From: Candidatus Woesebacteria bacterium RIFCSPHIGHO2_02_FULL_42_20
GTDB taxonomy: Bacteria > Patescibacteriota > Microgenomatia > UBA8517
DNA length: 64,000 nt
Assembly (NCBI GenBank): GCA_001792535.1
Contig: MGGS01000013.1
Location: 692 to 64,691, forward strand
Direction of reading: 5' to 3'
Shown here: piece after piece, positions 4,823-49,470 of the stretch
How the letters are laid out: every line of letters begins with the position of its first letter
How positions within the stretch are numbered: the stretch's first letter is position 1
Made by a program: the position numbers and the translations under genes
Notes under the pieces: model-generated
Database searches by the model: none
What the model was told of the DNA's origin: nothing
Seen by the model: only the letters and a program-made list of their open reading frames with translations

Positions 4823-6318
4823 TCTTGGTGGATTTTACCTCGACTTTGTTGTAAGTACCAAATTTCCGCCGTCTGAATGGTTTTTATTTTTATAAAGTTT
4901 TGTTTTAGAAATTGGTTTAGTTGAGGAAAACTGTCTGCCTCGCTTAGTACGACCACGGCTTTAGGGGGGTTAGCAGCCAGATCAATTAAAACTGTTTCGG
5001 GTGAATAAAAATCCTTTACGTGATAATCTGCTACATATTTTATTGGCGGGAGCCTTTTGGCAAGGGCGTAAATTGTTGATGTGCTGCCCCAGACAAAAAT
5101 TCTGTCGTACCGGTCCGTTATAGTAGTTAGAAACTGCGCTACTTCATAGTCTCGTGGTGTATTGGAGTCAAAATTCTTGAGGTAATCGTTTATGGTTACT
5201 TTGCTTGTAGCAAATTCAAAGAAGCGGTTATAGTAACTTGAGGTGGAGTAATACCAAAACTTAAAATAAAATGGGACGACTGCAAATAGCGAGAGCGGGA
5301 TAATTGAGTAAACCTGTTCTTTCTTTGGCGAAGTTGCCAATAATGCAACCAACAGAGAAAGGGGTGGTACCGTTTGCATTAAATAATGGGGGTAGGGCCG
5401 CTCGGAAAGAGTTGCCGCAAAAAGCGTGAAGACAAGCCAAACAGTAGCAAAAGTAAAAGTAAGCGACAGTTTTTTGCGAAGAAGGTAAAGAGTAACCGTT
5501 ACAATTAATACAATTAAGCCACGAATAAGAATGGGTGCGTTACGCTCTAAAAACGGCGCTTGCGTTTCATCTGGCCTCCAGGAAGATAAATATCCGACGT
5601 TTTGAGCAAAAGCGGCGCTTATATATTGGCTTAATCCGCCCCGAAAATAATACCAAGCGAAAGTTAGAAGTATAGGGGTTGCAAACCCGATGGCTAATGG
5701 AAGAGCTTTTCTTGCAGTATTAAGTAGTCCTTTAATGTTAAACGTCTCTTTAAATAGCCAAATTATAATAATTACAGGCAGATCAAAGGCAGCTGGGATT
5801 TTAAACAGTGTTGCAAGCGAAAATAAAGCTCCGGCGATTAGTATTTTTTGAGTATTTAGTTTTCCGGCCAAGAGTAGTAGAAAAGCAGCAACACTTAGTC
5901 CAATCATAAAAACTTCGGAATTGGCTATTTGACCTTCAAAAAGCGGGATTGTAGACAAAAGTGCAAAAACAAACGTGGCAACTTTTTGAGCCTTCAAGTT
6001 TTTGGGAAAGAGCCTTTTGGTAAGTTGCCAGAAAATTACGATGTAGACTATATTCCAAAGCGCAAGGATCATTCTAAACCAAAAAACGCTTCCGGCAATT
6101 GCAGCAAGGACATAAAGGAGAGGCGGTTTGTTGTCATGGATGTCGCGGTAAAGCACCAAGCCTTGGCGTATTCCTTCTCCCAGAGTTAAATAAATCATTT
6201 CATCGCCATAAGCGTAGGGCTCAAAAAAAGAGGGAATTCGAAGAATAAAAACCAAAACTAGTGTCGCAATTAACCAATTGGGTAGCGAGGCACCGACGAT
6301 TTTTTTGAGGAGTTTCAT
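4819..6318 (-). CDS. GT-C fold glycosyltransferase, ArnT/PMT (GT39/GT83)-like
   Basis: N-terminal YGDEMIYL ... KPPLLY (the DE and PPL motifs of PMT_2/ArnT enzymes), about 11 TM helices, then a C-terminal soluble domain of about 150 aa. Confidence 0.7.
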   Translation of the reverse strand: MKLLKKIVGASLPNWLIATLVLVFILRIPSFFEPYAYGDEMIYLTLGEGIRQGLVLYRDIHDNKPPLLYVLAAIAGSVFWFRMILALWNIVYIVIFWQLTKRLFPKNLKAQKVATFVFALLSTIPLFEGQIANSEVFMIGLSVAAFLLLLAGKLNTQKILIAGALFSLATLFKIPAAFDLPVIIIIWLFKETFNIKGLLNTARKALPLAIGFATPILLTFAWYYFRGGLSQYISAAFAQNVGYLSSWRPDETQAPFLERNAPILIRGLIVLIVTVTLYLLRKKLSLTFTFATVWLVFTLFAATLSERPYPHYLMQTVPPLSLLVALLATSPKKEQVYSIIPLSLFAVVPFYFKFWYYSTSSYYNRFFEFATSKVTINDYLKNFDSNTPRDYEVAQFLTTITDRYDRIFVWGSTSTIYALAKRLPPIKYVADYHVKDFYSPETVLIDLAANPPKAVVVLSEADSFPQLNQFLKQNFIKIKTIQTAEIWYLQQSRGKIHQE

Positions 6319-6340
6319 TGTTAATTGAGTTTAGCAGGTA

Positions 6341-7693
6341 TTATCTTGCCAGCAAAATAAACTTTAATTCGCCAAACTCCTTAACAAGGCCTTGCCTATA
6401 GTTTTCGATTTTAACTTCGTCGGGGTTTCCGCTGGTTATAACACCCACCCGAAAGGTTTTTTTGGGAATATCGTTTACAATGTCGTTTTCAGTCATTTGA
6501 GCCGTTCCTACATAAAAAGGCAACTCGGCTCCGCTTGGGACGTATAAAGGAGCTTCTAATTTATAGTATTTTGTTTCCCAAATGTGATGGGCGGCAGCAT
6601 TCCAATTAATGAGAAAGTCGTCGCCGCGTTTGACCTCGTGGATATATTGGGCGAGTTCCCGAAAAGGTCTCTTTGTGGGGTGGACGAAATATTGGTAGTC
6701 GACGAAGACGAATACTATTAGCAAAATACCCAATAAGACACCCGAGACTTTTCTGGTATTGGTTGCAAGCAAGATCATCGCGGCAGGGATTGTGTAGAGT
6801 AGGTAGCGGTCGAAAAAGATCGACTGAAATTTTTGGGAGACTGACCAGGTGAGCACTATTGGTCCCAAAAACCAGGAGAGCAAAAAGGTTGATTTGGCGA
6901 CGTTTGTGCCCCACCGTCGCACAATATATGTGGTATATGTTAAATACAGCCCGTAGCGTGCTAATTTATTTGGCAACCCCTCCGCGATATATTTTTGTAT
7001 GAGTCCGCGCAGGTCGGTTAGATTTGGTGTTGCGAGCCAGAACCCGGAGCCGACGAGTGTTGTTTGGTAATAAAGTGCAGACAGCCAGGGTGCGTAAATT
7101 AAGCCGATTGCCAGATATGACTTAAATATATTAAACGCCGTCTTTCTATGTCCCCAAACTGCAACTTTTACGAACCATAAGCCTTGGATAAATATGGCAA
7201 ATAGTGCAAAATGATGGCTGTAGAGTGCCCAGGAAGTACCAATAACATACCCCAAATAATCTTTGAAACTTGCTCGCTTTCGTACTCTTCCAAGCGTGTC
7301 GGTTTTTGGAAAAATTATTTTTGCAAAAAAATACATCGATATAGTGACACCGGCAGCTAGTATCGAATACATCCGGCCCTCAAATGCATACTGGAAGAAG
7401 AAGGGATTAAAAAAGGTAAAAGCGGTGGCTAAGATTGCGGCTCTTCGATTCCATAGCAAGGCCGTAATTTTATAAACGAAAAAGATAGCAACACAATAGT
7501 AAACAAATGACAGCGCTCTTATTGCCACTTCCCCGTCGCCGAATATTTTATACCAGTAGTGAAGCGTGAGGTTATACAGCGGTGGGCTGGTGTCACGGCT
7601 GATTATTTCCAAAATTTTCGGTACGGAATTTCTTGAAAGTACAGCGCTAAACGCTTCGTCCCCCCAAAGGCTTTGATTGAATACAGTTTGCAT
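6341..7693 (-). CDS. GT-C fold glycosyltransferase, ArnT/PMT-like (paralogue)
   Basis: WGDEAFS ... SPPLYN motifs, multiple TM helices, C-terminal soluble domain; same architecture as 4819..6318. Confidence 0.7.
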   Translation of the reverse strand: MQTVFNQSLWGDEAFSAVLSRNSVPKILEIISRDTSPPLYNLTLHYWYKIFGDGEVAIRALSFVYYCVAIFFVYKITALLWNRRAAILATAFTFFNPFFFQYAFEGRMYSILAAGVTISMYFFAKIIFPKTDTLGRVRKRASFKDYLGYVIGTSWALYSHHFALFAIFIQGLWFVKVAVWGHRKTAFNIFKSYLAIGLIYAPWLSALYYQTTLVGSGFWLATPNLTDLRGLIQKYIAEGLPNKLARYGLYLTYTTYIVRRWGTNVAKSTFLLSWFLGPIVLTWSVSQKFQSIFFDRYLLYTIPAAMILLATNTRKVSGVLLGILLIVFVFVDYQYFVHPTKRPFRELAQYIHEVKRGDDFLINWNAAAHHIWETKYYKLEAPLYVPSGAELPFYVGTAQMTENDIVNDIPKKTFRVGVITSGNPDEVKIENYRQGLVKEFGELKFILLAR

Positions 7694-43214: not shown

Positions 43215-43631
43215 ATGGCTAAAGATACAAAAACAAAAAAGGGCTATGTATACGCCATTGGGCGAAGGAAATCCGCTTCGGCAAGGGTGAGGCTTTTCAA
43301 AGGAAACAAGGAAAGCCTGGTAAATGGAGAGGTTATCGGAAAATACTTTCCCGGCGAAGCCATGAGAAAGGTTTGGTCCAAGCCGTTTACGCTAGCGGGT
43401 GTGGCCGGTAAGTACTTCGTTACTATAAAGGTTTCAGGTGGCGGTAAAATTGGGCAATTGGAAGCGGCAGTCCATGGAATTTCCAGAGCGCTCTCGCTTA
43501 TCGACTCGAATAAGTTTAGAAGTACTCTCAAGAAGTTTGGCTTACTTACCCGCGATCCCAGGGTTCGTGAGCGAAGAAAAATCGGCACTGGCGGAAAAGC
43601 CCGCCGTAAAAAGCAGTCACCAAAGAGGTAA
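43215..43631 (+). CDS. rpsI: 30S ribosomal protein uS9
   Basis: MAKDTKTKKGYVYAIGRRKSASARVRL ... C-terminal GGKARRKKQSPKR; start set at ATG 43215. Confidence 0.85.
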   Translation: MAKDTKTKKGYVYAIGRRKSASARVRLFKGNKESLVNGEVIGKYFPGEAMRKVWSKPFTLAGVAGKYFVTIKVSGGGKIGQLEAAVHGISRALSLIDSNKFRSTLKKFGLLTRDPRVRERRKIGTGGKARRKKQSPKR

Positions 43632-43660
43632 TTCTTCTTAGCACTGTCAAGAAGTAGACT

Positions 43661-44827
43661 TTAGCCTCCGGTAACTCGAATTGCTTCATCAATCGAAGTA
43701 ACTCCTTGGATTACCTTGTCGACGGACGAGTTCCGGAGGCTTTTTATCTTCTTTTGCTTAATTATCGGCAAGAGATCTGCCAGTTGCGGACTTTCAGTAA
43801 TAACAGATCTTATGTCGTCGTCGAAAGGGACAACTTCAAAAATTCCAATGCGGCCTTTGAAGCCGGAGGCTAAGCATTCGTTACAGCCCTTGCCTTTATA
43901 GACTGCATTGGTTTGGGAGTTGCCTAAAAATTTAGCTTCTTGGGGAGTGGGACTGTGTTGCTCTTTGCAACTGTTACAAATTTTGCGCACAAGCCTTGAG
44001 GAAATTACGGCATTAACAGAGTTGGCAGTTACAGACCTGGGCACCCCCATTTCGATTAGTCTTGCCGTTACTCCAAAGACGTTTAAAGTGTGAAATGTCG
44101 AAAACACCAATCTGCCGGTTAAGGCGGCTTGAATTGATATTTGAGCGGTTTCGCTGTCTCTGATTTCTCCTACCATGATAACGTCGGGATCTTGGCGTAA
44201 GACCGCCCGAAGCGCTTTGGCAAAGGTGAAACCGACTGCCTCGCTGATATGAGTTTGTCTGATGCCCTCCATTTGTACCTCGACCGGGTCCTCAATTGTA
44301 ATAATATTGTTGGTGTCTTTTTTTACCGAGTTTAGCATTGAGTAGAGGAGGGTTGTTTTGCCTGACCCGGACGGACCGGTAGTCAAAATCATTCCATAAG
44401 GTTGGCTGATGAGGTTTAAAACGGTTTTGTATTGAGTTTCATCAAACCCGAGTTGGGATATACTTATCAGGATGTCTTCGCGGTTTAGTATTCGCATTAC
44501 AATTGCTTCGCCGTAGATTGTCGGGAAGGCAGAAACCCTGATATTGTAAACCCTGATGTCATAGTTAAACTCAAAATGGCCGTCTTGGGGTAACCTGTGC
44601 TCCGTAATGTCAAGCCCGGCGAGGACTTTTATTCTCGAGGTGGTAGACTCGCTGCTGTCGAGATTAACGTGCTCGATATCCCGAAGCATACCGTCTATGC
44701 GAAATTTAATTTGGATCTTTTCCCTTTGAGGTTCGATGTGAATATCACTGGCACGCTTGCCTATGGCGTCCGTTAATACTTTGTTTAGCCAGTCGTTTTC
44801 CCCGGCCCGGAGTGTGAAATCTGCCAT
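43661..44827 (-). CDS. GspE/PilB/ComGA-family secretion/pilus ATPase (short, lacks N1 domain)
   Basis: Walker A GPSGSGKTT, Asp box, Walker B, His box, C-terminal tetracysteine CNSC...CNEC; 388 aa. Confidence 0.75.
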   Translation of the reverse strand: MADFTLRAGENDWLNKVLTDAIGKRASDIHIEPQREKIQIKFRIDGMLRDIEHVNLDSSESTTSRIKVLAGLDITEHRLPQDGHFEFNYDIRVYNIRVSAFPTIYGEAIVMRILNREDILISISQLGFDETQYKTVLNLISQPYGMILTTGPSGSGKTTLLYSMLNSVKKDTNNIITIEDPVEVQMEGIRQTHISEAVGFTFAKALRAVLRQDPDVIMVGEIRDSETAQISIQAALTGRLVFSTFHTLNVFGVTARLIEMGVPRSVTANSVNAVISSRLVRKICNSCKEQHSPTPQEAKFLGNSQTNAVYKGKGCNECLASGFKGRIGIFEVVPFDDDIRSVITESPQLADLLPIIKQKKIKSLRNSSVDKVIQGVTSIDEAIRVTGG

Positions 44828-45171
44828 ATGACCATTATGTTACTTTTCGGTAAGTTCGGCAAATGCTGCTGTAAACTTTCTTTTTTAATCAAATCTATAA
44901 ATCGCTTTAGGGTATCGACTATTACTGGTATTTCCAGGTAATCAATAAAAATTGCAGTTCAGGCAAGCCATCCGGGAAGAAGCGAAACACTGCTGTCGGA
45001 AAATCTTTCTACCACAAATTCATCGGTTAGCCAGAGTATATGAAGCCATTAACTTCAAACTTGGTACCACGGGCGTAGCGACAGCGTAGCCCGTGCGGGG
45101 AAGTTAAACCCGTATCCTGCGTGGTAGGATAATCATGTAAGTGAAATTCAAAGTACAATCACACGTAACCT

Positions 45172-45483
45172 ATGTGGGAACAAATGAAAATACAATTAGA
45201 GATTACATTCAAAATCAGGGAAAACAGGATACGGGTCGATCAGAGATCGTACGAGGAAATGATACCACAGGTGAAGTGTAACGGAACCCGTGGAGACTCA
45301 TTGATTGTGACAAAAAGTGGCGGTATATTAAGCCACGCTGCAATACTCTCAAGAGAGTTAAAAAAACCTTGTATTGTTGGCGTAGGTGAGTCTATTAGTA
45401 TTTTAAAGAATGGTGATGTCGTAAGTGTTAGGGCAGATTTGGGAGTTGTGGAATTAGTGAATAACCCATCCAATAATGCATGA
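45172..45483 (+). CDS. stand-alone PEP-utilising-enzyme mobile (phosphohistidine swivel) domain protein
   Basis: GDSLIVTKSGGILSHAAILSRELKKPCIVGVGE matches the swivel-domain consensus (GG.TSHAAI.ARE.GIP.VVG) including the phosphocarrier His; 103 aa. Confidence 0.65.
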   Translation: MWEQMKIQLEITFKIRENRIRVDQRSYEEMIPQVKCNGTRGDSLIVTKSGGILSHAAILSRELKKPCIVGVGESISILKNGDVVSVRADLGVVELVNNPSNNA

Positions 45484-45521
45484 CCAAAGAGGAGGTACTT
45501 TCTAAAATTGATCAGGGTGCT

Positions 45522-46997
45522 TTAGGTGTTTCTTAGTATTTTAATAGTTCCTTTATCTGCATGGACTTCGACCAAGTCCCCATCTCTTAAAATAGCAGTT
45601 GCATTAACCGTGCCGACAATACACGGCACACCGAATTCTCGGGCAACAATTGCGGCATGGCAGGTGATACCACCTTCGTCGGTTACGAAAGCTGCTGCTT
45701 TTTCCATAGCAATTACAAAATCAGGGTTTATCATTGAAGAGACCAGAATATCACCTTTATTTACTTTTGGTATATCTTTATTGCTGAAAACAACTTTTAC
45801 TTTTCCTTTCGCAGTGCCTCTTGAAGCACAAATTCCTTTAATTTGATTAGTTGCATCTTTCGACCCGGCCTTTTTTTGTTTTTTGTATTTTTTAGAAACT
45901 AAGTTTTGCAAATTTACTGCCTCATCGCCAAACCGTTTGGCCAGTTTTCCCTGGATCCAAATAATGGCAAACCCCTTTTGTCTTTCTTTAACTAGGTGGA
46001 CTAAATTCTGCTTGCTAACTTTGTTGTCTAGACAGGAGGCAATTTCATCTGGTTCTAAAGAAAGGATTACAGAAAAGGGTAGACCTGCCCTTTTTGCGAT
46101 TTCCTTAAAAAGAGCGACTTTTGTGGCCTGGAAAAGATGTTCGTTAGATTCTGTAGTCAAGGTCCTTAGAAAAATAAATGTTCTCAAAGCCTCGACAAGC
46201 TTTAGTAATTTTCCATGAATGGTATATTTTTGTATGCTTTCCTTGTACTCTTTTTCAGCCTTTGTCCTTTCGCTCCTGATTCTATTAATTTCATAATCTA
46301 GGTTTGTTTTTAATAGATAAAGTTTAATTCGCTCTAAATAGTCATTTTTGGTGAAGGAAACATCTTCGGTTGTTATCGGACCCTTTTGCCATGCATAGTT
46401 TCGGACATGAAACTCAATATCTTTGTCTATCTTTTTACCCTCTTTAATTTTTTGCGCAGTCAACATTAATTTTAGGGGCTCGTCTCTATAGGCCAGCTCG
46501 CCTAAATCTGCCGGTATAGTAACTTTTCCAATAGCATTTTTGGGCAACTCTTTTGATAATCTTTCTTCCAGATACATATCGGGCCTAACCCACGCAGGAA
46601 TCATTGATTTTACATACATTTCAGAGAATTGATTTAAGTGTTTGAGCAGTTCTTGGTTACTCAATTCTTTAAAATTAATTTGTTCTAAATAATAGCGGAA
46701 GTTTTCAACGTTTTCTGTTATATCAAAAATTTTCTTTGCAAATTTTTCAAAGAAACTTTGATCTTCGTTGAATTTATTATCAAAAAAGTTATAAAAACTT
46801 TGAAGGTCGTCTTCAAGGTAATATTCGTCACCGTTTAGGATCATAAAGTTATCTGAGGTAATTGACAACCCTGTATATTTTATCTGATTGCTTTTTGTGT
46901 TGGCCTGAATTTGTCCCCATTCAATAAACCAGCAAAACTTTCTACTAACTTCAAAAGTCCAGTTTAGGTGATTAACTTTTTCTAAAACCATTCTCAA
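45522..46997 (-). CDS. protein with unknown N-terminal 390-aa domain and C-terminal PEP-utilising swivel domain
   Basis: C-terminus DEGGITCHAAIVAREFGVPCIVGTVNA is a second phosphohistidine domain. No ATP-grasp (PPDK_N) or PEP-binding TIM barrel is present; convergent with 45172..45483. Confidence 0.6.
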   Translation of the reverse strand: MRMVLEKVNHLNWTFEVSRKFCWFIEWGQIQANTKSNQIKYTGLSITSDNFMILNGDEYYLEDDLQSFYNFFDNKFNEDQSFFEKFAKKIFDITENVENFRYYLEQINFKELSNQELLKHLNQFSEMYVKSMIPAWVRPDMYLEERLSKELPKNAIGKVTIPADLGELAYRDEPLKLMLTAQKIKEGKKIDKDIEFHVRNYAWQKGPITTEDVSFTKNDYLERIKLYLLKTNLDYEINRIRSERTKAEKEYKESIQKYTIHGKLLKLVEALRTFIFLRTLTTESNEHLFQATKVALFKEIAKRAGLPFSVILSLEPDEIASCLDNKVSKQNLVHLVKERQKGFAIIWIQGKLAKRFGDEAVNLQNLVSKKYKKQKKAGSKDATNQIKGICASRGTAKGKVKVVFSNKDIPKVNKGDILVSSMINPDFVIAMEKAAAFVTDEGGITCHAAIVAREFGVPCIVGTVNATAILRDGDLVEVHADKGTIKILRNT

Positions 46998-47037
46998 GTT
47001 ATAAATATCCAGGAAATTAAACCGAAGAAGTGCTTAA

Positions 47038-47748
47038 TCAGATTATATTTCCTGTTTTTCTGAATTCCTCGTACATTCTTGCTACGTCTCCAAGCCTATC
47101 CAAAATGTCAGGGATATTACCTGTGTTTAAATCATTTAATACATCCTTCGCTTCTTCCCTTGACAAAACATCGCGTGCCAGATCAGTTACACTTTTTGGA
47201 TCTTGATTGCCGATTCTTCTAACCATAATAGCTGCCAGTATCAGATTTATTCCGGAAATATCTTCATCAACGTGCCTTATATGTGCCCCACTCTTGGTAA
47301 CTAAAACTTCAATAGCAATTCCTCCTTGTGGAGTTACTTGCGCGGTTACCCATTTTTTATCCGGTGTTTTATTATCGCCGTTAACAATAAACGTTTGTGC
47401 ATCTCCAGTTGCCTCGACATCATCAATCTCTGTTCTTATGACCGGCCAAAATATTGAGTCTTCTACACTCGCCATTTTTGCAAGACCGGCCTGTTGTAGC
47501 CGTCTCGCTTCACCTCTTTTACCTTCTGAAAGTCTTTGTTTGGCTTGCACCGATTCATCCGGAAATTGGAATTCCGGTTTTTGTTTGGTCAAGATATATG
47601 TAGCTTCCACGGGGTAAATTACTGCATGAGTATAGCCCTCACCGGCTTTAATTTGAATTAACCTCCCCGTTTCTTTTACGGTTTCAGTTACTTGCTTATT
47701 GTCTATATTATCATGGGATACATCGGAGGATTCATCAGGCGATGGCAT
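47038..47748 (-). CDS. hypothetical protein (236 aa)
   Basis: ORF only; acidic, no recognised motif. Confidence 0.35.
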   Translation of the reverse strand: MPSPDESSDVSHDNIDNKQVTETVKETGRLIQIKAGEGYTHAVIYPVEATYILTKQKPEFQFPDESVQAKQRLSEGKRGEARRLQQAGLAKMASVEDSIFWPVIRTEIDDVEATGDAQTFIVNGDNKTPDKKWVTAQVTPQGGIAIEVLVTKSGAHIRHVDEDISGINLILAAIMVRRIGNQDPKSVTDLARDVLSREEAKDVLNDLNTGNIPDILDRLGDVARMYEEFRKTGNII

Positions 47749-47749
47749 A

Positions 47750-48124
47750 TTAGGGATTCTTTTGTGAAGTAACCTTTTCCAAAACCTCTTTTTCCTTGAG
47801 TTCCACCTTAATTGTGCGGAGAAGTTGAGTACCTAAACTTGCAAGTTTAAACCCTGTTGATGCCACAAAGCCCATGAAAAATAAGTGGGCGGCAATGTTT
47901 AGTGGTTTATTTAATTTATCGGAACTGACGAGTTCCTGTTTAAAGTCTGCGTCAGCCGGGGCTTGGTCGGCAAACTTTGAAAAATCCAAAGAAACCGATT
48001 CGAAGGAAAAGAGATTAATAGGCTCTACTTTTTTAGTAAATACCTGATAAACATTGAGTACGGAGAATAAAATCGCAGCAACCCCGACTCCAAGTAAGAC
48101 ATAACCTACCAACTTTTCACTCAT
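47750..48124 (-). CDS. small N-terminally anchored membrane protein
   Basis: One TM helix (LVGYVLLGVGVAAILFSVLNVY), 124 aa; start abuts the stop of 47038..47748 gene. Confidence 0.35.
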   Translation of the reverse strand: MSEKLVGYVLLGVGVAAILFSVLNVYQVFTKKVEPINLFSFESVSLDFSKFADQAPADADFKQELVSSDKLNKPLNIAAHLFFMGFVASTGFKLASLGTQLLRTIKVELKEKEVLEKVTSQKNP

Positions 48125-48199
48125 ACGATGTTATTATACAACAAACTGAACCTTAATTTCACTAGTGGATCAAAGATAGCAGTTCCAATGGAGTGGGCG

Positions 48200-48227
48200 T
48201 TGACATTGAGTATCAAAACACTATAAT
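48200..48227 (+). promoter_or_regulatory. consensus sigma70 promoter TTGACA-16-TATAAT; predicts a near-leaderless transcript for 48237..48524
   Basis: TTGACA at 48200..48205 and TATAAT at 48222..48227; start codon ATG at 48237, about 3 nt after the expected TSS. Confidence 0.5.
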
Positions 48228-48236
48228 TATATTAGT

Positions 48237-48524
48237 ATGCAGAAGGTAATACTACAAGTACCAATGGACAAATCTCTTCGAGACCTTGCCGAGTTTTCGG
48301 CATCAACCCAGGGGTTTTCTTCACTCCAGGAAGCTGTGCGCCTTTTTGTGAACAAACTTGCCAAAGGATTAATAAATGTCTCCCTTGAAGAAGTAGAATA
48401 TCTTAGTAAGGCTGAAGGTCGAGCTTTGACCAAAAAATATAAGGCCTTCGTTTCGGAAAAGAAGAAGGGTAAAACACACCTTGCCCACTCGGCCAATGAA
48501 ATGTTGGATCAGTTGACTTCCTAA
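48237..48524 (+). CDS. hypothetical small protein (95 aa)
   Basis: ORF downstream of a consensus promoter; helical, Lys-rich; no motif. Confidence 0.35.
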   Translation: MQKVILQVPMDKSLRDLAEFSASTQGFSSLQEAVRLFVNKLAKGLINVSLEEVEYLSKAEGRALTKKYKAFVSEKKKGKTHLAHSANEMLDQLTS

Positions 48525-48713
48525 TAAGGTTAGACTTTTTTGTAAATGGCAGATCTAATCCGATATTAAAAGATCATAAATTAATTGGAAGCTTAAAAGG
48601 GTCTCGTGCATTCAGCGTCACCGGGAATTATAGAGTTACTTATATAGAGGTCAAAAGCGGCCACTATATATTTATAGATGTTGGCACTCACTCTCAGATA
48701 TATAAATAGATAT

Positions 48714-49367
48714 CTACTCTTTTGTTTCAATTTCAAAGTTGTTTAATTGATCAAAGAGCATTTTTACTTTCTCTTCTGTGACATCCTCCGGTTTTATTTT
48801 GCGGTGAGCAAAGATTTGTTTTTCAATTTCGAACCACATTGGAATAAATTTATCAAATTGTTCTTTTGTGTAAATAAGCTTATCTCTTGACAAATAACTC
48901 CTTTTTACCTCATTGAGACGATGTTCTAGTGATGTTGTTTTGTGTGGAGATACTCTTAAATCGGAGTATACACAAAGTTTTCGCATTATATTCGAATTGA
49001 AAGTTTCTTCTGTCTTTGCAAAACCAAACCCTTTGATCAAAACGAATGTTTTTGAGTTGACGTCCAGTTCTTCACAAATTGTATATGTCGCAATATGATC
49101 GTTATTGCTGAACTTGTCGATAAATTCTCTTTGTACTTTTTTCCAATATTTAATCCCTCTCTCTTCTAAATATTCGGGAAATAGGTCCAGATCTGCCTTA
49201 ATAATATTTCCCATGTTATGGAGAAGACAAGCAGAAATAATTGAGTTTTTATCTAGAGGTTTTTCGAAATTATCACAAATGATGGATGCTACTCCGGCAA
49301 CGCGGAGCATATGAGTCTGTAGCTGTGGCATGATTTTATATTTTTGATAAATTTGGGAGATTTTCAT
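48714..49367 (-). CDS. HD-domain-like phosphohydrolase-fold protein (HD motif degenerate: HN)
   Basis: THMLRVAGVASII ... ISACLLHNMGNI resembles HD-domain motifs I/II, but the invariant Asp of the HD doublet is Asn. Confidence 0.45.
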   Translation of the reverse strand: MKISQIYQKYKIMPQLQTHMLRVAGVASIICDNFEKPLDKNSIISACLLHNMGNIIKADLDLFPEYLEERGIKYWKKVQREFIDKFSNNDHIATYTICEELDVNSKTFVLIKGFGFAKTEETFNSNIMRKLCVYSDLRVSPHKTTSLEHRLNEVKRSYLSRDKLIYTKEQFDKFIPMWFEIEKQIFAHRKIKPEDVTEEKVKMLFDQLNNFEIETKE

Positions 49368-49377
49368 AAAAAATTTT

Positions 49378-49470
49378 GTCGAGATTTACGAAAAAGTTAG
49401 AACCGAATTTCGCAAAGGGTAGCTCGGCCGCCTGCGGCGGCCTCGCTTCCGTTATTTTTTGCGCGCGCGA
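49378..49470 (+). repeat. att-arm repeat copy A (element-end arm; candidate attL)
   Basis: GTCGAGATTTACGAAAAAGTTAGAACCGAATTTC followed by GC-rich hairpins (GGCCGCC-TGC-GGCGGCC, CCTCGC-TTC-GCGAGG) and a T-run; about 80% identical to copies at 55568 and 57184 (inverted). Confidence 0.6.

What the first reader, a model, noticed from the sequence alone, without database searches (positions are those of the whole stretch)
45172..46997. Two convergent proteins each carrying a PEP-utilising phosphohistidine swivel domain, without ATP-grasp or PEP-binding partners
A 103-aa stand-alone swivel domain (GGILSHAAI) faces a 491-aa protein whose only recognisable part is a C-terminal swivel domain (GGITCHAAI). 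In PEP synthase, PPDK and rifampin phosphotransferase this domain shuttles phosphate between an ATP-grasp and a substrate domain. Here those partners are missing or unrecognisably diverged (the 390-aa N-terminus). This could be a split dikinase that phosphorylates a small molecule, in the manner of the antibiotic-inactivating RPH enzymes, or a phosphorelay. It sits just outside the integrated-element array.
Basis: partly seen in the sequence, partly recalled or inferred. Interest (0 to 1): 0.6.

Follow-up and report, generated by a model that had tools for sequence, protein, structure and literature searches.

The report
Orphan dikinase subunit plus swivel-domain relic
A Woesebacteria genome encodes the substrate-binding and phosphate-carrying half of a rifampin-phosphotransferase-like kinase with no ATP-binding half within 64 kb; the small gene facing it is most likely a broken leftover, so the locus itself is fairly ordinary but belongs to a large, unstudied enzyme family of ultra-small microbes.

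Summary
Both ORFs exist exactly as described and both match the PEP-utiliser swivel domain (PF00391). The interpretation needs two corrections.

1. **The 390-aa N-terminus of the 491-aa protein is not unknown.** It is 40-45% identical over its full length to residues ~315-805 of ~806-aa proteins built as ATP-grasp + middle domain + swivel. A confident model (pLDDT 93.5) matches rifampin phosphotransferase (RPH) through its rifampin-binding domain and swivel. So the protein is the substrate-binding plus phosphocarrier component of an RPH-like dikinase, with the domain make-up reported for HpeH (HpeHI; PpsAB and CreHI are cited there as homologous two-component dikinases). Only the ATP-grasp is missing, and none is in the 64-kb window.

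2. **The 103-aa ORF keeps only the C-terminal half of a swivel domain.** Its N-terminal half has lost the conserved motifs. It has no clear ribosome-binding site, I found no ~100-aa homologues, and no counterpart lies beside the orthologues I examined. It is probably a gene relic.

**Most likely mechanism:** a separately encoded ATP-grasp protein phosphorylates His447, and the tethered swivel delivers the phosphate to an unknown small molecule.

**In passing:** relatives in Patescibacteria and DPANN archaea form arrays of 3-11 such genes with diverged middle domains, about half with an ATP-grasp gene in the DNA fetched.

The parts
45522..46997 (-). 491-aa protein (OGM14007.1 / EKD57950.1 class): substrate-binding + phosphocarrier component of an RPH-like dikinase, with no ATP-grasp
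   Evidence: It is 40-54% identical over 97-100% of its length to ~500-aa CPR proteins, and 40-45% identical to residues ~315-805 of ~806-aa PF01326+PF00391 proteins. The AF2 model has pLDDT 93.5. Foldseek's top hits are RPH-Lm 5fbu/5hv1/5fbt, E 8e-16 to 7e-15, TMq 0.54-0.61.
45873..46997 (-). Middle (substrate-binding) domain, residues 1-375, mostly helical, RPH rifampin-binding-domain type
   Evidence: The MID HMM scores E=7e-135. The Foldseek alignments to RPH span 465-578 columns, well beyond the ~105-residue swivel. A family profile aligns to RPH 5fbs residues 647-866 with E=5e-28. Residues invariant across 57 fused and short homologues are E58, Y59, Y170, E173, L177, H197, W203, R223, E318 and R339.
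45849..45872 (-). Flexible linker, residues ~376-383
   Evidence: This is the only internal low-confidence segment of the model (pLDDT <50 at residues 377-381). The alignment is also variable here. Both fit a tether for a swivelling domain.
45525..45848 (-). Complete phosphohistidine swivel domain, residues 384-491, with catalytic His447 (codon 45657-45659) in TDEGGITCHAAIVAR
   Evidence: PF00391 matches at E=8e-25 over profile positions 2-72 of 72. His447 and the surrounding motif are invariant in the family. The motif fits the GGXT[S/C]HAA consensus quoted in PMC12167813. The sequence was checked.
45172..45483 (+). 103-aa ORF (OGM14006.1 / EKD57951.1): truncated, degenerate swivel domain, probably a gene relic. 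The recognisable half is residues 45-97 (45304-45462) and the His codon is 45334-45336.
   Evidence: The swivel HMM aligns only model positions 54-106 of 107 to residues 45-97. In the N-terminal half the conserved GDILV and TxPD motifs read NRIRV and SYEE, and there is a 5-residue insertion. The upstream DNA holds no remnant in any frame. There is no clear Shine-Dalgarno sequence. The only ~100-aa match among the 150 best hits from 1.84 billion representatives is the ORF itself.
47038..47748 (-). 236-aa protein of unknown function, co-directional and 40 bp upstream of the 491-aa gene (possible operon)
   Evidence: ORF. It has no Pfam match and no PDB sequence match, and is not an ATP-grasp. 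There is only a weak similarity (25% identity, E=5e-4 pairwise) to a 199-aa gene near the closest orthologue in L005.
47750..48124 (-). 124-aa predicted membrane protein, first gene of the possible operon
   Evidence: ORF. A promoter-like site (10 of 12 matches) lies at 48162-48133 on the minus strand. There is no family match.
48714..49367 (-). 217-aa HD-domain phosphohydrolase-like protein, a recurrent neighbour of this subfamily
   Evidence: PF01966 matches at E=1.8e-5. Homologues 52-55% identical lie 2.4-4 kb from the orthologous genes in L005 and L007/L010. A 35-39% identical homologue lies directly downstream of a fused gene in a Clostridia MAG, L012.

Best explanation
The 491-aa protein is the substrate-binding plus phosphocarrier subunit of an ATP-dependent, RPH-like small-molecule dikinase whose ATP-grasp domain is not part of the polypeptide.

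**Proposed cycle**
1. A separately encoded PPDK_N-type ATP-grasp protein binds ATP and transfers the beta-phosphate to His447 of the C-terminal swivel domain. It may go first as pyrophosphate, with the gamma-phosphate then hydrolysed.
2. The swivel domain, tethered by a flexible linker (residues ~376-383), carries the phosphate to the pocket of the helical middle domain (residues 1-375).
3. There it phosphorylates a hydroxyl group of a small molecule that is not yet known. Overall: ATP + substrate + H2O -> AMP + Pi + phospho-substrate.

**Shown here:** the domain identities, the intact catalytic motif, conservation of the family, and absence of an ATP-grasp in the window.

**Inferred:** the existence of a partner elsewhere in this genome, the chemistry, and the class of substrate.

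The facing 103-aa ORF is the 3' relic of a former swivel-carrying gene, most likely a lost paralogue, and not a working partner.
For: **Architecture**
- The protein is homologous along its whole length (40-45% identity) to residues ~315-805 of ~806-aa proteins that carry PF01326 + PF00391.
- The model is confident (pLDDT 93.5, pTM 0.92), with only the linker disordered.
- The best structural matches are RPH-Lm over 465-578 columns, E 8e-16 to 7e-15. A family profile reaches RPH residues 647-866 at E=5e-28.

**Intact function**
- His447 and TDEGGITCHAA are invariant. About ten middle-domain residues are invariant across both fused and short forms.
- The ~500-aa forms all start 10-20 residues before the same W-x-F-x-V-x-R-K-F motif, so this is a true N-terminus and not a truncation artefact.

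**Precedent for a separate ATP-grasp**
- In HpeHI, HpeH is modelled as homologous to the RPH rifampin-binding and swivel domains, and HpeI is the ATP-grasp. PpsAB and CreHI are cited there as homologous two-component dikinases (PMC12167813).

**Feasibility in this lineage**
- Stand-alone ~311-317-aa PF01326 proteins are very abundant (7,998 hits at E<=1e-20). Those that carry a name are labelled Patescibacteria, Parcubacteria, Moranbacteria or Pacebacteria.
- Of 27 gene arrays in relatives, 11 have one stand-alone ATP-grasp gene and 4 a fused one in the DNA fetched.
- One MAG (CAYWRI01) has an orphan gene on one contig (L063) and a stand-alone ATP-grasp on another (L049).
- On a rough NJ tree, fused and split states are interspersed.

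**Relic status of the small ORF:**
Against: - No ATP-grasp gene lies within 64 kb here, or within 8-10 kb of the orthologues in four other Microgenomates loci: L005, L006/L009, L007/L010 and L022.
- In the characterised two-component dikinases the genes are, to my knowledge, adjacent.
- None of the 120 best stand-alone ATP-grasp hits is named as Woesebacteria or another Microgenomates lineage. Names are sparse, so this is weak evidence.
- The rest of this genome could not be searched.
- The substrate is unknown, and the middle domain is only 16-20% identical to RPH.
- The small ORF keeps an uninterrupted reading frame and a well conserved His motif (63-71% identity to fragments of other swivel proteins over ~50 residues). 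Expression as a mini-protein is therefore not excluded.
Confidence: 0.6

Rival explanations
1. ATP-grasp-independent phosphotransferase. The orphan protein works with no ATP-grasp at all. His447 is charged either by a phosphorylated small molecule bound in the middle domain (a phosphoryl-exchange or transphosphorylation enzyme) or by another PEP-utilising enzyme of the cell such as PPDK or PEP synthase.
For: - HpeH alone catalyses phosphotransfer from 4-phosphoacetophenone to acetovanillone (PMC12167813 abstract).
- PTS Enzyme I alone phosphorylates rifampicin in vitro, so swivel-domain chemistry is promiscuous (PMC13099321 abstract).
- 20 of 79 related loci are orphans with no ATP-grasp in the fetched DNA, including all close Microgenomates orthologues.
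- Phosphohydrolase genes (HD, DHH-like) recur beside the subfamily, which hints at a metabolism of phosphorylated compounds.
Against: - The residues conserved in the orphans are the same as in the fused forms that carry an ATP-grasp, which suggests the same reaction.
- Most fetched stretches reach only about 10 kb to each side, often less.
- At least one MAG combines an orphan with a distant stand-alone ATP-grasp.
- No physiological role for ATP-grasp-free exchange is known.
Confidence: 0.2
2. The 103-aa protein is a functional stand-alone phosphocarrier that shuttles phosphate between an unknown kinase and the 491-aa protein, forming a split relay.
For: - The His motif GGILSHAAILSRELKKPCIVG is well preserved and the ORF is intact. 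It is annotated as a gene in public records and was seen on 43 contigs.
- Separate swivel-only ORFs do occur next to family members elsewhere. L011 has a complete 108-aa domain with ATGA overlaps on both sides. L090 has a 106-aa ORF.
- Some relatives carry two swivel domains in one chain, in the order middle domain, swivel, swivel: L032, L047 and L073.
Against: - Only the C-terminal half of the domain aligns. The first hairpin is absent and the GDILV / TxPD core is lost, so independent folding is doubtful.
- There is no clear ribosome-binding site.
- I found no ~100-aa homologue and no counterpart beside the orthologues in L005-L010 and L022.
- It is of the canonical first-swivel type, not the divergent second-swivel type of the two-swivel proteins.
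- The genes are convergent, not co-transcribed.
Confidence: 0.07
3. The whole locus is decaying. After loss of its ATP-grasp partner, of which the 103-aa ORF may be the last piece, the 491-aa gene is a non-functional leftover.
For: - A degenerate swivel fragment lies next to it.
- One of the fragment's nearer relatives (P0134, 63% identity over ~50 residues) lies two genes downstream of a 234-aa PPDK_N gene, in what looks like a broken-up ATP-grasp-to-swivel gene (L088).
- The gene sits ~3 kb from integrated elements, and its GC content is low (0.34 against ~0.42).
Against: - The 491-aa ORF is intact, with all invariant family residues present.
- The ~500-aa ATP-grasp-less form is old and conserved across Woesebacteria, Shapirobacteria and Roizmanbacteria at 43-54% identity.
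- The contigs compared are 100% identical across this stretch (L001-L004), which gives no sign of decay.
Confidence: 0.1

Closest known systems
Two-component small-molecule dikinase HpeHI; PpsAB (phenol) and CreHI (4-methylphenol) are cited as homologous two-component dikinases. The comparison is with the HpeH subunit (PMC12167813).
   Same: - One polypeptide carries an RPH-type substrate domain followed by a C-terminal swivel domain.
- The catalytic His sits in a GGXT[S/C]HAA motif near the C-terminus.
- The ATP-grasp is on another polypeptide.

   Different: - The partner genes are, to my knowledge, adjacent in those systems. Here none lies within 64 kb.
- The middle domain shows no detectable sequence similarity to curated models beyond the swivel. 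The NCBIfam PRK08296 models match residues 372-489 only, scoring 103 bits against a cut-off of 578.
- At 491 aa the protein is shorter than the catalytic-His positions quoted for HpeH (His581) and PpsA (His560) imply.
- The organism is a CPR bacterium with no sign of aromatic catabolism genes nearby.
Rifampin phosphotransferase RPH-Lm (PDB 5FBS, 5FBT, 5FBU, 5HV1)
   Same: - It is the best structural match over both the rifampin-binding-type domain and the swivel domain.
- Profile-level sequence homology covers RPH residues 647-866.
- The His motif lies within 50 residues of the C-terminus.
   Different: - There is no ATP-grasp domain in cis.
- Identity is 16-20%.
- The score against the RPH equivalog model NF041857 is 70 bits against a cut-off of 999.
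- The middle domain is ~375 residues, shorter than the rifampin-binding domain as I recall it from the RPH structure papers (about 430 residues; not checked here).
- Nothing points to rifampin as the substrate.
Uncharacterised ~800-830-aa fused proteins (PF01326 + middle + PF00391) of uncultured Clostridia and one Micrarchaeota MAG (for example P0009, P0014, P0047; loci L011-L027)
   Same: These are the true sequence family: 39-45% identity over the whole 491 aa, with the same invariant middle-domain residues.
   Different: - They carry the ATP-grasp in cis.
- They sit in a different conserved operon, downstream of an HTH + HAD-like 347-aa gene and a 138-aa gene.
- No member has a known function.
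PEP synthase / pyruvate phosphate dikinase
   Same: The swivel domain matches: best PDB sequence hit 8a8e PEP synthase, E=2.6e-26, over residues 380-485.
   Different: - There is no ATP-grasp and no PEP/pyruvate-binding TIM-barrel domain.
- The score against TIGR01418 is 120 bits against a cut-off of 739.75.
- The public annotation 'phosphoenolpyruvate synthase' is therefore not justified.

Membership tests
PEP-utilising enzyme mobile (swivel) domain, PF00391 | Score above the Pfam gathering threshold (23.1 bits) with full domain coverage | tested here: met
   491-aa protein: 86.7 bits, profile positions 2-72 of 72.
PEP-utilising enzyme mobile (swivel) domain, PF00391 | The same, for the 103-aa ORF | tested here: inconclusive
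   The score of 51.3 bits is above threshold, but only profile positions 26-71 align. The family swivel HMM aligns positions 54-106 of 107 only. The N-terminal core motifs are lost.
RPH-like dikinase, substrate-binding/phosphocarrier subunit of a two-component enzyme (HpeH type) | RPH rifampin-binding-type domain followed by a swivel domain in one chain | tested here: met
   AF2 model with pLDDT 93.5. Foldseek hits to RPH-Lm at E 8e-16 to 7e-15, TMq 0.54-0.61, 465-578 columns. Profile hit to RPH residues 647-866.
RPH-like dikinase, substrate-binding/phosphocarrier subunit of a two-component enzyme (HpeH type) | Catalytic His in a GGXT[S/C]HAA[IV][IV][AS]R motif near the C-terminus | tested here: met
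   GGITCHAAIVAR with His447, 45 residues from the C-terminus. The consensus is quoted from PMC12167813.
RPH-like dikinase, substrate-binding/phosphocarrier subunit of a two-component enzyme (HpeH type) | A separately encoded ATP-grasp partner, adjacent to my knowledge in the characterised systems | tested here: not met
   There is no PPDK_N-type ATP-grasp in the 64-kb window: tblastn and HMMs with filters off, best E 1.2. The rest of the genome could not be tested with these tools.
RPH-like dikinase, substrate-binding/phosphocarrier subunit of a two-component enzyme (HpeH type) | ATP-dependent, His-dependent phosphorylation of a small molecule giving AMP + Pi | not testable with these tools
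   This needs biochemistry.
Rifamycin-inactivating phosphotransferase (NCBIfam NF041857 / NF000283) | Score above the equivalog cut-off and a three-domain architecture including the ATP-grasp | tested here: not met
   70.4 bits against 999, and 55.8 bits against 1700, with the swivel region only aligned. There is no ATP-grasp.
PEP synthase (TIGR01418 / NF005057) | Score above the equivalog cut-off, with ATP-grasp and PEP-binding domains | tested here: not met
   120.5 bits against 739.75, and 127.9 bits against 598, covering residues 372-485 only.

The most novel reading that the evidence does not exclude
The orphan gene is a satellite of a modular system that is widespread in ultra-small symbionts (Patescibacteria and DPANN archaea) and was not found described in the papers searched. 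In this system one conserved ATP-grasp kinase module charges many interchangeable 'specificity domain + swivel' proteins. These are encoded as arrays of 3-11 paralogues, as giant multi-module chains, or as dispersed orphans like this one. Their substrate domains have diverged to 16-22% identity while the swivel stays at 50-57%. On this reading the system is a combinatorial small-molecule phosphorylation toolkit, for scavenging or neutralising host or community metabolites, in organisms with otherwise minimal metabolism.
Probability: 0.3. Interest if true: 0.7.

Novelty: new variant of a known kind. Interest (0 to 1): 0.42.

Why it matters
- **Annotation.** The locus corrects a public annotation: 'phosphoenolpyruvate synthase' is wrong.
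- **Family placement.** It places a conserved Woesebacteria/Microgenomates protein in the RPH / two-component dikinase family. That family includes an antibiotic-inactivating enzyme (RPH), phenol-activating enzymes (HpeHI, PpsAB, CreHI) and a prodiginine-condensing enzyme (HapC, compared with RPH in a paper listed).
- **Testable question.** Can a phosphocarrier/substrate subunit work with an ATP-grasp encoded far away, or with none?
- **Wider lead.** CPR bacteria and DPANN archaea, whose metabolism is otherwise sparse, invest heavily in diversified copies of this module. I found no description of this in the literature searches I ran. It could bear on how these episymbionts handle small molecules from their hosts.

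Tried and rejected
- **The upstream 236-aa protein as a diverged ATP-grasp.** It has no similarity to fused N-termini, to the ATP-grasp HMM, to Pfam or to PDB sequences.
- **The conserved ~297-aa downstream neighbour of the Woesebacteria orthologues as the missing ATP-grasp.** It is a DHH-like protein (PF01368, E=1.8e-4, below threshold).
- **Frameshifted remains of a longer gene upstream of the small ORF.** None was found in any frame of 44600-45600.
- **A structured RNA in the 344-bp spacer upstream of the small ORF.** There was no Rfam match at E<=1 and no tRNA.
- **A defence-system role.** No PADLOC match was found for the two ORFs, their neighbours or a stand-alone ATP-grasp.
- **Single-sequence AF2 model of the 103-aa ORF.** pLDDT was 35, which is uninformative.
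- **Second-swivel origin of the small ORF.** It does not resemble the divergent second swivel of the proteins that carry two swivel domains.
- **Selection analysis on the small ORF.** L001-L004 are 100% identical to the window across 43601-49400 where they overlap, and the metagenome scan returned no close orthologue.
- **HD-domain neighbours of other Clostridia loci (L015, L021).** They are not homologous to the window's HD protein.
- **Literature searches for CPR/DPANN swivel-domain arrays.** Nothing relevant was found.
Full report
**Observation.** One is 45172-45483 (+), 103 aa. The other is 45522-46997 (-), 491 aa with a TTG start. They are convergent and 38 bp apart. Both pass Pfam's threshold for the PEP-utiliser mobile domain PF00391. 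The large protein matches over the whole profile (residues 413-483, E=8e-25). The small ORF matches over profile positions 26-71 only (residues 45-90, E=8.8e-14). The histidine motifs read TDEGGITCHAAIVA and GGILSHAAILS. Neither protein has a PPDK_N ATP-grasp or a PEP-binding domain.

**Organism and context.** Exact look-up of the ribosomal and neighbouring proteins identifies the organism as a Candidatus Woesebacteria bacterium recovered repeatedly in metagenome assemblies. The MAG names are RBG_16_41_13, RIFCSPHIGHO2_02_FULL_42_20 and ACD_57C. The large protein is publicly annotated as 'phosphoenolpyruvate synthase' or 'PEP-utilising enzyme mobile domain-containing protein'. The locus lies between the rpoA-rplQ-rplM-rpsI operon plus a T2SSE ATPase on one side, and serine-recombinase/terminase elements from about 50 kb on the other.

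**What the 390-aa N-terminus is.**
- The 491-aa protein has more than 1,700 homologues. Most of the best hits are ~800-830-aa proteins carrying PF01326 (PPDK_N ATP-grasp) plus PF00391.
- tblastn shows the window protein matching their residues ~315-805 at 40-43% identity, end to end. The first ~315 residues, the ATP-grasp, have no counterpart in the window.
- A second set of 36 hits under 560 aa, most of them ~435-540-aa full-length forms, comes from Woesebacteria, Shapirobacteria, Roizmanbacteria and other uncultured lineages. The full-length ones share the same start, 10-20 residues before a conserved W-x-F-x-V-x-R-K-F motif. The ATP-grasp-less form is therefore a real, conserved protein and not a miscalled start.
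- An AlphaFold2 model built on 57 homologues is confident (pLDDT 93.5, pTM 0.92). It has a largely helical domain (residues 1-375), a short disordered tether (377-381) and a beta-rich swivel domain.
- Foldseek against the PDB ranks six rifampin phosphotransferase (RPH-Lm) entries first. The top four have E 8e-16 to 1.5e-14, TMq 0.54-0.61 and 465-578 aligned columns, far more than the ~105-residue swivel.
- A family profile aligns to RPH residues 647-866 at E=5e-28.
- Residues 1-375 are therefore the RPH 'rifampin-binding'-type substrate domain.

**Where the ATP-grasp is.**
- It is not in the window. This was tested with tblastn, an HMM of the fused proteins' N-termini and an HMM of stand-alone ATP-grasp proteins on all six-frame ORFs with filters off (best E=1.2). 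The same N-terminus HMM detects distant PPDK_N domains elsewhere, for example in L092-L094, so sensitivity is adequate.
- It is also absent within 8-10 kb of the orthologues in L005, L006/L009, L007/L010 and L022.
- The adjacent genes are not disguised ATP-grasps. The 236-aa upstream protein matches nothing. The ~297-aa downstream neighbour in other Woesebacteria is DHH-like.

**Precedent.**
- HpeHI is described as a two-component homologue of RPH. HpeH is modelled as carrying the rifampin-binding-like and swivel domains, and HpeI is the ATP-grasp. The paper cites PpsAB and CreHI as homologous two-component dikinases.
- In that mechanism the beta-phosphate of ATP goes to the swivel histidine and then to the substrate. 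HpeH alone can move phosphate between phospho-product and substrate (PMC12167813).
- The window protein has this subunit's architecture and motif. It lacks the adjacent partner and any sequence similarity in the middle domain to curated models.

**Wider survey.** I scanned one genome per GTDB species with the short-family alignment and obtained 79 loci. I then annotated them with HMMs for the ATP-grasp, middle and swivel domains.
- 23 loci have single fused genes, mostly from uncultured Clostridia.
- 2 loci have a single gene beside a stand-alone ATP-grasp gene.
- 20 loci are orphans like this one.
- 27 loci have arrays of 3-11 ORFs with a swivel domain, typically ~480-520 aa and co-directional, in Patescibacteria and DPANN archaea. 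In 15 of these an ATP-grasp lies in the fetched DNA: a stand-alone gene in 11 and a fused one in 4.
- Within arrays the middle domains are 16-22% identical while the swivels are 50-57% identical.
- Some loci fuse many modules into single chains of 1,200-3,800 aa.
- The stand-alone ATP-grasp proteins are strongly conserved (56% mean column identity across bacteria and archaea) and very numerous (7,998 hits at E<=1e-20).
- One MAG has an orphan on one contig (L063) and a stand-alone ATP-grasp on another (L049). On a rough NJ tree, fused and short forms are interspersed.
- Together these results make a distantly encoded partner plausible. They do not demonstrate one for this genome.

**The 103-aa ORF.**
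- The family swivel HMM aligns only its second half (model positions 54-106 of 107) to residues 45-97.
- In alignments with complete domains, the first hairpin (G-x-A-S-x-G-x-A-x-G) is absent. The GDILV and TxPD core motifs read NRIRV and SYEE, and there is a 5-residue insertion.
- The stop-to-stop frame opens one codon before the ATG. The 344-bp spacer up to the T2SSE gene holds no remnant of a middle or swivel domain in any frame.
- There is no clear Shine-Dalgarno sequence.
- Among the 150 best matches from 1.84 billion representatives, the only ~100-aa match is the ORF itself. The rest are long multi-swivel proteins.
- The short hits lie almost all on contigs under 3 kb. The one on a long contig (P0134) lies two genes downstream of a 234-aa PPDK_N gene, in what looks like a broken-up ATP-grasp-to-swivel gene.
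- No counterpart lies next to the orthologues I examined.
- The conserved half is 63-71% identical to canonical swivels of other CPR proteins but only about 35% identical to the neighbouring gene's swivel. It therefore derives from a different paralogue.
- My conclusion is that it is the 3' relic of a lost swivel-carrying gene. Its intact frame and His motif mean that expression cannot be excluded. Genuine separate swivel ORFs may exist elsewhere: L011 has a 108-aa complete domain with ATGA overlaps.

**Mechanism and rivals.**
- Best supported (about 0.6): the protein is the orphan substrate/phosphocarrier subunit of an RPH-like dikinase, charged on His447 by an ATP-grasp protein encoded elsewhere, and it phosphorylates an unknown small molecule.
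- Rival 1 (0.2): the protein is ATP-grasp-independent and carries out phosphoryl exchange or is charged by another PEP-utilising enzyme.
- Rival 2 (0.1): the locus is decaying.
- Recurrent phosphohydrolase neighbours hint at a phosphorylated-metabolite pathway but do not identify the substrate. They are the HD protein at 48714-49367 and in L005, L007 and L012; DHH-like proteins in L005, L007 and L023; and an HTH + HAD-like protein upstream in 13 Clostridia loci.

**Novelty and score.**
- The protein is already in public databases, misnamed. Its architecture belongs to a known kind (RPH / two-component dikinases).
- The variant features are the absence of any nearby ATP-grasp and membership of a large uncharacterised CPR/DPANN/Clostridia family.
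- The locus itself is of moderate interest. The array phenomenon seen in relatives is the more interesting lead, and I found no description of it in the searches I ran.

Noticed in passing
L029, L033, L037, L040, L043, L045, L053, L058, L059, L066, L068, L071, L074, L076, L077, L079, L080, L084, L085 (whole loci): Patescibacteria and DPANN archaea carry tandem, co-directional arrays of 6-11 paralogous ORFs, typically ~480-520 aa, each with a swivel domain and usually a recognisable middle domain. About half of these arrays have one stand-alone ~315-350-aa ATP-grasp gene in or beside the array, for example L049 8906-9853, L071 4237-5286, L077 6232-7182, L080 1673-2641 and L085 12084-13046. Paralogues share 50-57% identity in the swivel but only 16-22% in the middle domain. 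I found no description of this in the literature searches.
   Followed up: partly
L055 596-11899; L046 4145-12286; L050 6131-12823; L029 4417-8667; proteins P0258, P0259: Giant single chains fuse one or more ATP-grasp domains with up to 8 swivel domains and several middle domains (1,400-3,768 aa). The exhaustive search with the small ORF is dominated by such multi-swivel proteins of 1,000-2,650 aa.
   Followed up: no
window 48714-49367 (-); L005 11960-12625; L007 13560-14213; L012 5204-5548; L005 9559-10458; L007 9570-10463; L023 ~6008-6352: Phosphohydrolase-type genes recur next to this particular subfamily in both CPR and Clostridia. One is a 217-aa HD-domain protein, 52-55% identical among Woesebacteria-like loci and 35-39% identical in a Clostridia MAG. 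The other is a ~297-aa DHH-like protein. In 13 Clostridia loci the fused gene is preceded by a 347-aa Cro/C1 HTH + HAD-like (S6PP) protein and a 138-aa unknown.
   Followed up: partly
L011 7636-8724, 8721-9047, 9044-11527; L090 5848-7119, 7119-7436: In a Micrarchaeota MAG, a 362-aa ORF, a complete 108-aa swivel-only ORF and an 827-aa fused gene follow each other with 4-nt ATGA overlaps. In a metagenome contig, a middle-domain ORF abuts a 106-aa swivel ORF. These could be genuine separately translated swivel proteins or frameshifts.
   Followed up: partly
L032 9725-11770; L047 327-2459; L073 9407-11482: Shapirobacteria, Woesebacteria and another Patescibacteria MAG encode ~680-710-aa proteins with a middle domain followed by two tandem swivel domains. 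The second swivel keeps a His but in a divergent motif (TSHSVLYGK, TSHPYLYAK).
   Followed up: partly
window 45068-45095 (+): A 7-bp inverted repeat (CACGGGC ... GCCCGTG, 14-nt loop containing a GCGTAGC direct repeat) lies in the 344-bp spacer between the T2SSE gene and the small ORF. There is no Rfam match.
   Followed up: partly
window 47038-47748 (-) and L005 10472-11071: The 236-aa protein directly upstream of the 491-aa gene has a weak similarity (25% identity over ~120 residues, pairwise E=5e-4) to a 199-aa protein encoded two genes downstream of the closest orthologue (P0002). Both lack any family match.
   Followed up: partly
window 45522-46997: GC content of the 491-aa gene region is low (0.34 for 46001-47000, against ~0.40-0.45 in the ribosomal operon). 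The gene lies ~3 kb from serine recombinase and terminase genes, so it may sit in a variable region.
   Followed up: no
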